Shown here piece after piece: positions 22,864-24,119 of a DNA stretch of 64,000 nucleotides. Source of the DNA: Eledone cirrhosa. Its lineage: Eukaryota. The notes beneath the pieces were generated by a model that was not told where the DNA came from, did no database searches, and saw nothing but the letters and a program-made list of their open reading frames with translations. The DNA lies in the NCBI GenBank assembly GCA_964016885.1, contig OZ024748.1, positions 50,530,001 to 50,594,000 on the forward strand, in the 5' to 3' direction. Position 1 is the stretch's first letter, and each line of letters starts with the position of its first letter. The position numbers were made by a program, and so were the translations under genes.

Positions 22864-23062
22864 ATTGGTAAACGGAATAGAAAATGCTGACAAATTGTTC
22901 ACAGTTGAAAAATGGTTTAATTAGGAATAAAAGAGTATTAGTGATTGTATGGGTTAGTATTCAGTTGTGGTTTTAAGTTTTTAAGTTTTTACCGGTTGCG
23001 CATTTCTAAATGCTTTTCAAAAATAATTTTGAGATAGAGTGTCCGTGCTGTTTGCTCTGATC
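22864..23062 (-). mobile_element. solo HHR-bearing insert in (TA)n, same family as the 23731-24119 palindrome
   Basis: Aligns by eye to the left arm of the palindrome; variant HHR at 22987-23023 (TTGAAAA-GCAT..ATGC-GCAA-CCGG-TA). Confidence 0.75.
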
Positions 23063-23305
23063 TATATATATAATATATAGATATATATAAGTAATGTGTA
23101 CAGCACTCACTCCAAGGGAAGACGTTGAGTTCGCTCAACGAAACGCCATTGCTTACGTTTTTCCGTATGATGTCTTCATTGTCGTATTGAATGTAATCAT
23201 ATATATATTTAGATGTATGTAAAAGGTAATCAGAAATAACAACACAATCGGCACAGTATATGGAAGGAATATATTATTTTAACGCTTGAAATAGCAGGAA
23301 GATGG

Positions 23306-23341
23306 TCTTAATGTTTTGGACGCTAGTCCTTCATCACAAGA
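23306..23341 (-). ncRNA. degenerate minimal hammerhead
   Basis: TCTT-GTGATGA-A-GGAC-TAGC-GTCC-AAAACATT-AAGA; core substitutions at positions 3 and 12. Confidence 0.4.
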
Positions 23342-23699
23342 AAGAATGAGAAATAAGATAGATTGAAGGGGTGGAATTAGAAAAAAATCTCTTGAGATAA
23401 AAATAACAGTTTCATTCATTTATTAATGATAATAATAACAAAGGCAAGTTATTTTACATGTTCCTTTCATTGTTTTACCAACGTTTCGGAGGGTTGATAT
23501 TGATATATTGTCTGATCTCTTTCTCTCTCTCTCTCTCTCTCTCTCTCTCTCTCTCTCTCTCTCTCTCTCTCTCTCTCTCTCTCTGTATATATGTATATAT
23601 ATATATATGTATATATACACATATATACATATATATATATATATATACACACACACACATTATATATATATATATATATATATATATATATATATATTT

Positions 23700-24119
23700 A
23701 AAAAAATAGAGGTGTAACACACGAGTTGTGATATATTAGTAAAAGGAAAAGAAAATGGTGACAAATTTTTCCCAGTGAAAAATAGTTTAATTAGGAATAA
23801 GTATAAATTAGTAATAAGTATTGGTTAATATTCAGTTTTAGTTTTAAGTTTTTACCAGTTGCGCATTTCTAATGCTTTTCAAAAATAATTTTGAGATAGA
23901 GCGCTCGTGATGTTTGCTCTAATCAGATTAGAGCAAATATCGCGAGCGCTCTATCTCAAAATTATTTTTGAAAAGCATTAGAAATGCGCAACTGGTAAAA
24001 ACTTAAAACTAAAACTGAATATTAACCAATACTTATTACTAATTTATACTTATTCCTAATTAAACTATTTTTCACTGGGAAAAATTTGTCAGCATTTTCT
24101 ATTCCTTTTACTAATATAT
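23700..24119. mobile_element. palindromic Penelope-like/HHR insert in (TA)n
   Basis: 194-bp arms 23731-23924 and 23926-24119, about 4 mismatches, centre 23925; variant HHRs at 23965-24000 (+) and 23850-23885 (-). Confidence 0.85.

What the first reader, a model, noticed from the sequence alone, without database searches (positions are those of the whole stretch)
22864..24119. Sister family: solo copy plus 194-bp-arm palindrome with the same inner boundary and a U3-A8/GCAA core
Seen: a second palindrome, also centred on TCAGA (23925). Its left arm has an unpaired extension (gaggtgtaacacacgagt) similar to that of the 17.7-kb element (gaggtgtcctacacgagt). A diverged solo copy at 22864-23062 ends at the position equivalent to the palindrome centre. 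All three motifs have UUGAAAA and GCAA in place of GAAA. Inference: the unit has a defined 5' end, and palindromes arise by a reproducible mechanism such as two priming events or fold-back second-strand synthesis. The conserved A13C change is either a tolerated core variant or a founder inactivation.
Basis: partly seen in the sequence, partly recalled or inferred. Interest (0 to 1): 0.75.

Follow-up and report, generated by a model that had tools for sequence, protein, structure and literature searches.

The report
Thriving Penelope retrotransposon with altered hammerhead
The palindrome and the solo copy are clipped end-pieces of a very abundant, recently spreading Penelope-type jumping gene whose hammerhead-shaped RNA motif carries one changed core letter (A13C) in over 11,000 copies, including those with intact genes, so the element likely spreads with a slow or silent ribozyme.

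Summary
The palindrome (194-bp arms, 1-nt centre, 33-bp one-sided tail) and the solo copy are 5'-truncated terminal repeats (pLTRs) of an autonomous Penelope-like retrotransposon (RT + GIY-YIG). The 'diverged' solo is identical to the pLTR of an intact, young element. The inner boundary is not the element's end: about half of the copies run further upstream. It is a sharp hotspot 30-32 nt behind a TATA-like box, likely the transcription start. TCAGA is not a fixed centre: the young subfamily folds at GA|TC, and the 17.7-kb sister folds 7 nt away. Complete palindromes pair one tailed with one tail-less arm (41 of 42), which favours two priming events. Head-to-head pLTRs with a tail and the U3-A8 core are published, and this scan noted such palindromes repeatedly in this genome. 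What I did not find in print is A13C: fixed in more than 11,000 motif copies across three subfamilies and in all 31 motifs at long-ORF loci, while the sister family keeps GAAA. The rest of the motif stays conserved, so a tolerated slow variant is slightly more likely than a dead relic. Cleavage is untested.

The parts
23698..23730 (-). 33-nt PLE 'tail' (+196 to +228), on the left arm only; abuts a (TA)n tract
   Evidence: Unpaired in the palindrome; +195 and +228 are the two fixed 3' ends in 91 of 96 sampled copies
23731..23924 (-). Left arm: 5'-truncated pLTR copy, +2 to +195, older subfamily (loop II UAGAA)
23925..24119 (+). Right arm: tail-less pLTR copy, +1 to +195; base 23925 is the single-base centre and the likely transcription-start A of TC-A-GATT
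   Evidence: 185 of 195 identical to the 3' pLTR of full-length copy L123; start inferred from the 5'-end edge and upstream TATA-like box
23965..24000 (+). Minimal type I hammerhead-like motif: U3-A8 core at 23968, helix II GCAU/AUGC, C13 at 23989, helix III broken (ACUGGU), predicted cut after 23997
   Evidence: no Rfam hit at gathering threshold
23850..23885 (-). Same motif on the left arm (U3 at 23882, C13 at 23861)
22860..23063 (-). Solo tail-less pLTR, +1 to +204, youngest subfamily (loop II one base longer), between (TA)n tracts
   Evidence: 205 of 205 aligned bases identical to the 3' pLTR of intact element L237
22987..23023 (-). Hammerhead-like motif of the solo copy: U3 at 23020, C13 at 22998, intact self-complementary helix III (ACCGGU)
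17670..18021 (.). Sister-family (B) palindrome: 144-nt arms, about 63-nt tail on the left arm, U3-A8 core with canonical GAAA; comparison only

Best explanation
These are clipped terminal repeats of an autonomous Penelope-like retrotransposon whose hammerhead-like motif has A13C fixed lineage-wide, likely laid down when the element's enzyme copied its RNA from two internal start points until it likely ran off the RNA's first base. Shown: the unit is the 3' pLTR of a pLTR-ORF1/ORF2(RT, GIY-YIG)-pLTR element; copies end at exactly two 3' positions (tail-less or tailed); 5' ends have a sharp edge at about +1; complete palindromes pair a tailed with a tail-less arm; GCAA is fixed. Inferred: +1 is the pLTR transcription start. 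The two ends of a cut in (TA)n each prime a cDNA, one at each start point, on RNA from one source element. The two cDNA 3' ends are joined head to head, through the self-complementary GATC where the subfamily has it, nearly blunt where it does not; if only one cDNA is kept, a solo results. Inferred: A13C arose once in the lineage founder, likely slows cleavage by ten-fold or more, and is tolerated because insertion does not need fast cleavage, while the motif is still kept by selection. Odds: identity as PLE pLTR 0.97; +1 is the transcription start 0.75; two priming events 0.65; motif still functional in some way rather than a dead relic 0.55.
For: Full-length element with two pLTRs about 4.85 kb apart; RT PF00078 and GIY-YIG PF01541; GLKF, DKG and CX4CxxC linker. 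14 of 20 fetched long-frame loci hold a 784-aa frame, median distance 0.7%. 3' ends: 57 tail-less, 34 tailed, 5 other of 96; 47, 36, 1 of 84 in the young subfamily. 5' ends at -6..+15 versus -60..-7: 43 vs 6 of 96 and 47 vs 3 of 84, p<1e-16 each. CATAAAA at -31/-32 in family A and TATAAAA at -30 in family B, before a homologous CAGAT; B copies show the same edge. One tail per palindrome: 16 of 17 and 25 of 25, about 0.47-0.49 expected. The parental centre base sits on the tailed arm in 9 and the tail-less arm in 7 of 16. Arms share a subfamily haplotype in 33 of 39 pairs versus 24.5% of random pairs. GCAA: 4591 vs 91 other; 98 of the first 100 of 6547; a third loop variant, 98 of the first 100 of 350; 31 of 31 motifs at 19 long-frame loci. 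GAAA copies scatter over haplotypes with C13 nearest neighbours. Lineage-level changes: 1 in 49 nt over +25..+73 (in loop II) vs 22 in 154 nt outside, p=0.011. HHR mutants did not affect insertion in vitro for an anole PLE (PMC11167929).
Against: No RNA evidence for the start site, cleavage or splicing. Arms sharing a haplotype fits fold-back copying or later gene conversion equally well. Lopsided junctions where the tailed arm is the shorter one (6 young and 6 old loci) could be later deletions at the palindrome tip. The 9:7 centre split could come from later inversion or repair. The conservation window was chosen after seeing the data and events were counted by hand; for the hammerhead proper (+41..+76) p=0.056, and the conserved block begins 16 nt upstream of it, so a promoter or protein site could be what is selected. 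Helix I is only 3 A-U pairs, and the predicted fold does not form the hammerhead junction, only helix II (z -0.2 to -0.9). At most 9 TA-flanked copies start at or near the predicted cut site, only 2 of them unambiguously, against 6547 motifs: no footprint of cutting. A published model explains such head-to-head junctions by self-priming on an antisense template (PMC3846280).
Confidence: 0.65

Rival explanations
1. Fold-back: one cDNA primed at the tail runs to the RNA 5' end, snaps back on local self-complementarity and copies itself; the endonuclease then trims the second arm at the TA-like site at +195.
For: The centre follows local self-complementarity (GA|TC in the TCAG haplotype, TC-A/T-GA in the TTAG haplotype). 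Arms share haplotype and rare variants (65 shared rare sites in 39 pairs). One tail per palindrome is also predicted. Self-priming and endonuclease-made tails are proposed in print (PMC3846280; PMC8557442).
Against: Tail-less solos are the majority, so +195 works without a partner arm. The centre base is split 9:7 where a one-way fold-back predicts one orientation. In 12 loci the tail-less arm holds 5' sequence that the tailed arm lacks. One pair has arms from different subfamilies (L048). Two RT start sites bracket the tail in vitro (PMC11167929).
Confidence: 0.25
2. A13C is a founder inactivation: the ribozyme is dead, and the block stays conserved only because it overlaps an internal promoter or a binding site for the element's protein.
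For: A13 changes inhibit canonical hammerheads 10-100-fold (PMC4075628, passage); A13 is in the consensus core (PMC3088659). Helix I is weak. No cut-site stubs. The conserved block starts at +25, upstream of the motif, and is shared with family B. Penelope has an internal promoter in its transcribed region (PMC2377424).
Against: The lineage-level changes seen inside the motif fall in loop II (UAGAA, AAGAA, UUAGAA), the one part a hammerhead tolerates; helix II differs from family B by a compensated U-A/G-C pair; the self-complementary helix III is kept. Family B, with GAAA, also showed no cut-site loose end among the rows listed, so the missing footprint does not separate the two.
Confidence: 0.4
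3. The 5' hotspot is an RT pause at a hairpin or a later recombination hotspot, not a transcription start.
For: The parent has a short imperfect hairpin across +1 and a weak stem over +1..+31; about half of the copies read through the site.
Against: The edge is one-sided (sharp upstream, tailing downstream). It lies at the homologous base in family B, whose sequence there differs, and a TATA-like box sits at -30 to -32 in both families. Read-through copies are expected from the long RNA started in an upstream pLTR.
Confidence: 0.2
4. An independent non-coding palindromic element (MITE, fold-back element or retrozyme unit) with its own defined ends.
For: Short ORF-less copies are about half of all copies.
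Against: The same sequence is continuous with the RT-EN gene and is identical to pLTRs of intact elements. No tandem non-coding units or target-site duplication were seen at the window copies.
Confidence: 0.03

Closest known systems
Endonuclease-bearing PLE insertions with an inverted 5'-truncated pLTR and a one-sided 30-40-bp tail (Craig et al. 2021, PMC8557442, passages; Arkhipova et al. 2013, PMC3846280, passages)
   Same: Head-to-head pLTRs, optional 33-34-bp tail on one arm, partial tandems, (TA)n targets, Inr-like and TATA-like motifs in the pLTR, CX2-5CxxC linker as in Neptune and Nematis.
   Different: Here about half of the copies are pLTR-only stubs with a base-sharp 5' edge; tail pairing is nearly strict; the coding region is two overlapping frames; Neptune versus Nematis was not resolved.
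Minimal hammerheads of metazoan PLEs, including the U3-A8 variant of Schistosoma mansoni (Cervera and De la Pena 2014, PMC4209133, parts 1-2 of 4)
   Same: Type I layout in the pLTR, short self-complementary helix III implying dimer action, U3-A8 covariation, short helix I.
   Different: A13 is C in the whole lineage; I saw no A13C variant in the parts read. No bulged base before helix II.
Poseidon element PAc of Anolis carolinensis (Frangieh et al. 2024, PMC11167929, parts 1-2 of 4)
   Same: Two internal RT start points bracket the tail; both target strands are cut and extended; AT-rich targets; HHR mutants do not affect insertion in vitro.
   Different: PAc has a canonical, protein-assisted hammerhead overlapping the ORF start and a single ORF; here the first AUG of ORF1 is at +267, behind the tail, and the core is altered in nature.
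Animal non-LTR retrozymes (bioRxiv 10.64898/2026.07.22.740005, part 1 of 5)
   Same: Short type I hammerhead-bearing units related to PLE pLTRs.
   Different: These copies are truncations of a coding element, not tandem non-coding units.

Membership tests
EN+ Penelope-like element (Neptune/Nematis type) | RT domain followed by a C-terminal GIY-YIG endonuclease | tested here: met
   PF00078 at 264-451 and PF01541 at 690-779 of the L237 frame, both at or above cut-off
EN+ Penelope-like element (Neptune/Nematis type) | GxKF and DKG motifs; CX2-5CxxC linker before the endonuclease | tested here: met
   GLKF at 55, DKG at 161, CDRPNCGIC at 653; features as listed in PMC8557442
EN+ Penelope-like element (Neptune/Nematis type) | Direct pLTRs from partial tandems, inverted 5'-truncated copy, optional 30-40-bp tail | tested here: met
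   L122/L123, L236, L237 have two pLTRs; tail 33-34 nt
EN+ Penelope-like element (Neptune/Nematis type) | Single ORF | tested here: not met
   Two overlapping frames, 455 and 784 aa stop to stop, in L236-L238. The Fig. 1 legend of PMC8557442 allows an ORF1 separated by a frameshift in some PLE types; I could not see which
EN+ Penelope-like element (Neptune/Nematis type) | RT phylogeny places it in Neptune or Nematis | not tested
   No reference PLE proteins were fetched
EN+ Penelope-like element (Neptune/Nematis type) | Target-site duplication | tested here: inconclusive
   Copies sit in (TA)n, which hides it
Minimal type I hammerhead ribozyme | Core 3-9 with a 3-8 Watson-Crick pair | tested here: met
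   UUGAAAA, the U3-A8 variant described in PMC4209133 and PMC3088659
Minimal type I hammerhead ribozyme | G12 A13 A14 A15.1 | tested here: not met
   GCAA in 4591 of 4682 and 98 of the first 100 of 6547
Minimal type I hammerhead ribozyme | Helix II closed by G10.1-C11.1 | tested here: met
   Predicted in all four folds; compensated pair against family B
Minimal type I hammerhead ribozyme | Self-complementary helix III and NUH triplet | tested here: met
   ACCGGU-A in the family and the solo; broken to ACUGGU in both window arms; T at that site in 12 of 213 arms
Minimal type I hammerhead ribozyme | Helix I | tested here: inconclusive
   Only 3 A-U pairs by eye, not predicted; family B forms a longer one
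Minimal type I hammerhead ribozyme | Site-specific self-cleavage | not testable with these tools
   Needs an assay; the genomic proxy was uninformative
Non-LTR retrozyme | Tandem non-coding units, each with a complete hammerhead | tested here: not met
   Unit is continuous with a coding PLE; window copies are solo or inverted

The most novel reading that the evidence does not exclude
A Penelope lineage has gone through at least three waves of amplification, the last nearly identical and with intact genes, with a hammerhead that lacks the conserved A13 yet is still held by selection. The PLE hammerhead fold would then have a job other than fast self-cutting (a protein-binding, dimerising or promoter element, or a protein-rescued ribozyme), and the GCAA and GAAA sister families in one genome are a natural matched pair to find out which.
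Probability: 0.4. Interest if true: 0.62.

Novelty: new variant of a known kind. Interest (0 to 1): 0.42.

Why it matters
Two open questions about Penelope-like elements become testable. First, what the hammerhead is for: published work found it weak, protein-assisted and dispensable for insertion in vitro. A young, intact, successful lineage with a natural core change beside a GAAA sister family gives the natural control. Second, how inverted pLTRs with a one-sided tail form: strict tail pairing, two fixed 3' ends and a base-sharp 5' edge give exact predictions for a two-primer model. The architecture itself is known, and this scan has noted it many times in this genome, which limits surprise.

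Tried and rejected
Rfam scan of the window: 0 hits. Repeat finder swamped by microsatellites. Search for RNA runs: no RNA holder listed. Laying contigs of runs X4 and X1 on L123 showed no GT..AG joint in the pLTR among the 13 joints listed; run types are unknown, so a possible intron (GT at the predicted cut site, TACTAAC at +105, AG just before the AUG at +267) is neither supported nor excluded. DNA search with the solo copy returned no candidates, a tool blank for very common words; a pattern later found 6547. The first motif scan of intact copies missed them because it allowed no insertion, corrected. A region-wise test on a multiple alignment was discarded because the repeat at +74..+82 was misaligned; redone by columns. 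A tally typed into one search had 95 entries instead of 91 and was discarded; the 27 A, 14 G, 50 T split is my recount by eye. Cut-site footprint: at most 9 hits in family A; none among the 18 of 360 loose-end rows shown for family B, so no contrast. No pseudoknot or stable stem was predicted right behind the UUUUUUA in the ORF overlap. Rejected: fixed centre sequence TCAGA; decayed solo; stand-alone palindromic element. Literature: no paper held all of hammerhead + A13C + self-cleavage or the terms; searches showed no report of this variant or of twin priming together with PLE terms. Lunse et al. (RNA Biol, small PLE hammerhead variants) was not held and may describe position-13 variants; no supplements were read.

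Full report
Coordinates. +1 is the central A of TC-A-GA (window 23925 on the right arm). 'Family A' is the finding's family, 'family B' the 17.7-kb one. The Inr (YYANWYY), TATA, CCAAT, E2F, branch-point and slippery-site labels and the hammerhead numbering are recalled, not from a call. Earlier scan notes call this an octopus genome; I did not check that.

1. Observation. The palindrome has 194-nt arms with 4 mismatches around one unpaired base. The left arm carries 33 extra bases (23698-23730) that contain the quoted extension. The solo copy (22860-23063, minus strand) starts at +1. All three motifs read UUGAAAA-helix II-GCAA; family B reads GAAA. Both window arms also have ACUGGU for ACCGGU in helix III. 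Rfam does not see the motif.

2. What the unit belongs to. A genome search gave 2709 candidates; the top 30 of 40 scored were 97-100% identical over the arm plus extension. Several continued upstream into a GIY-YIG and RT gene. L122/L123 is a full pLTR-ORFs-pLTR copy with a period of about 4.85 kb. A protein search gave many long open frames. Of 20 loci fetched for that reason, 14 hold a 784-aa frame (median distance 0.7%, range 0.04-1.7%), and 3 also hold a 455-aa upstream frame that overlaps it around UUUUUUA. [quoted passage not shown] The solo copy matches the 3' pLTR of intact L237 at 205 of 205 aligned bases: it is the youngest subfamily, not a decayed one. Family B is a sister: its pLTR aligns in blocks and one locus holds an endonuclease fragment 51% identical.

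3. 3' ends. In 96 motif copies from 90 loci around the first 98 of 4591 hits, 57 end at +195, 34 at about +228 and 5 elsewhere. In 84 young copies from 70 loci, 47 end at +204/205, 36 at +238 and 1 elsewhere. This is the optional 30-40-bp tail (PMC8557442; PMC3846280, passages), which in an anole PLE lies between two RT start points (PMC11167929, parts 1-2 of 4). Both ends lie in UA-rich words that blend into the (TA)n flank.

4. 5' ends. Old subfamily: 43 of 96 start at -6..+15, 6 at -60..-7, 43 further upstream, 4 after +15. Young: 47, 3, 32 and 2 of 84. For the young sample I left out 17 of the first 100 hits, nearly all widely spaced inverted pairs, so long copies are under-counted there. 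The density step is 18- and 38-fold. Genome-wide there are 218 exact fold-back centres and 522 exact read-through junctions for the old haplotype. So +1 is a hotspot, not the end of the element. CATAAAA begins at -31/-32 in A and TATAAAA at -30 in B, in front of a homologous CAGAT, 43-44 nt before the core. In B, 16 of 30 sampled motifs start at 0..+11, and TA-flanked loose ends appear at +2/+3. I infer a transcription start; D. virilis Penelope also starts in its pLTR (PMC2377424, passages).

5. The centre. In the TTAG haplotype it is TC[A/T]GA; the parental A is on the tailed arm in 9 and the tail-less arm in 7 of 16 complete one-tail palindromes among 30 centre-selected loci. In the young TCAG haplotype the commonest centre is GA|TC. 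The window's B palindrome folds at +8; its parent has no TCAGA there. The centre therefore follows where the cDNAs end and what self-complementary bases lie there.

6. How the palindromes form. One tail per palindrome: 16 of 17 (the other has two) and 25 of 25 (two loci with broken partner arms left out), against 0.47-0.49 expected. In 39 arm pairs, partly from the similarity-biased search, 33 differ at no more than 1 of 11 diagnostic sites, against 24.5% of random pairs; one pair is clearly mixed. Median arm-arm distance is 0.022 against 0.061 to other copies. In 12 loci the tail-less arm has 5' sequence that the tailed arm lacks. Best reading: two coupled priming events on RNA from one source, joined at their 3' ends. 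Fold-back explains the shared haplotype and the tail pairing, but not easily the 9:7 split, the tail-less solos or the lopsided junctions, though later deletion and conversion could blur these. A self-priming model on an antisense template is in print.

7. A13C. Old loop variant: 4591 C against 91 other (27 A, 14 G, 50 T by eye). Young variant: 6547 hits, 98 C in the first 100. Third variant: 350 hits, of the first 100, 98 family A and 2 family B. All 31 motifs at 19 of the 20 long-frame loci have C (none found at L234). Family B: 11,804 hits, GAAA in 100 of the first 100. The 9 GAAA arms sampled fall on several haplotypes, each nearest to C13 copies, as expected of later point mutations. So the change predates all sampled subfamilies and did not stop amplification. 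A13 is in the consensus core (PMC3088659, passages), its mutation is said to inhibit 10-100-fold (PMC4075628, passage), and core changes other than the 3-8 swap gave low activity in a mutational scan (PMC9901934, passages). U3-A8 is published for PLEs (PMC4209133, parts 1-2 of 4). Between old and young subfamilies, +25..+73 has one lineage-level change, in loop II, against 22 in the other 154 nt (p=0.011 with post-hoc bounds; p=0.056 for +41..+76). Against function: helix I is 3 A-U pairs, folding shows only helix II, and there is no cut-site footprint, but the GAAA family showed none either in what was listed. I put a retained role at 0.55 and a dead ribozyme on a promoter or protein site at 0.4. 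The window's palindrome arms are likely inactive in any case: helix III is broken and read-through RNA would pair arm with arm.

8. Novelty. Architecture, tail and U3-A8 are known. I found no paper with A13C in a PLE hammerhead, but the most relevant paper was not held. Verdict: new variant of a known kind, interest 0.42.

Noticed in passing
L236, L237, L238 (ORF overlap, L237 reverse strand about 3107-3176): ORF1 (455 aa stop to stop, no Pfam hit) and ORF2 (784 aa, RT-EN) overlap around UUUUUUA, a possible -1 frameshift site; no stable stem was predicted right behind it.
   Followed up: partly
pLTR +72 to +263 (L237; window 23996 onward): Candidate intron signals: GT at the predicted cut triplet, TACTAAC at +105, and AG just before the first ORF1 AUG at +267. 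Untested.
   Followed up: partly
L123:4700-4880, L237 upstream of +1, L174:1340-1460: Upstream of +1 both families keep CCAAT and TGGCGC(G)AAA (E2F-like, recalled) motifs; the young subfamily has this block duplicated.
   Followed up: no
window 17670-17732: Family B's tail is about 63 nt, longer than the usual 30-40 nt, and shares a core word with family A's tail.
   Followed up: no
window 3506-3888, 8872-9199, 28767-29212, 47311-47691, 48174-48766, 57673-58516 and others: A different, abundant 190-210-bp repeat, more than 15 copies, solo, tandem and inverted; its reverse strand has a B-box-like word (recalled), suggesting a tRNA-derived SINE. No hammerhead core found in it.
   Followed up: partly
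window 4430-7603: Near-intact LINE: AP endonuclease, RT and a PHD finger, one stop between the frames.
   Followed up: partly
window 29918-30115: 198-bp imperfect palindrome (87%), unrelated to families A and B.
   Followed up: no
G000:C2:359515902-359534021 (L252): Five tandem family A partial copies with a period of about 3.87 kb, next to an inverted copy.
   Followed up: no
L239: Both the direct and the inverted pLTR have C at position 3, leaving a C3-A8 mismatch.
   Followed up: no
L048: Palindrome whose arms differ at 5 of 11 diagnostic sites: possibly two different template RNAs.
   Followed up: no
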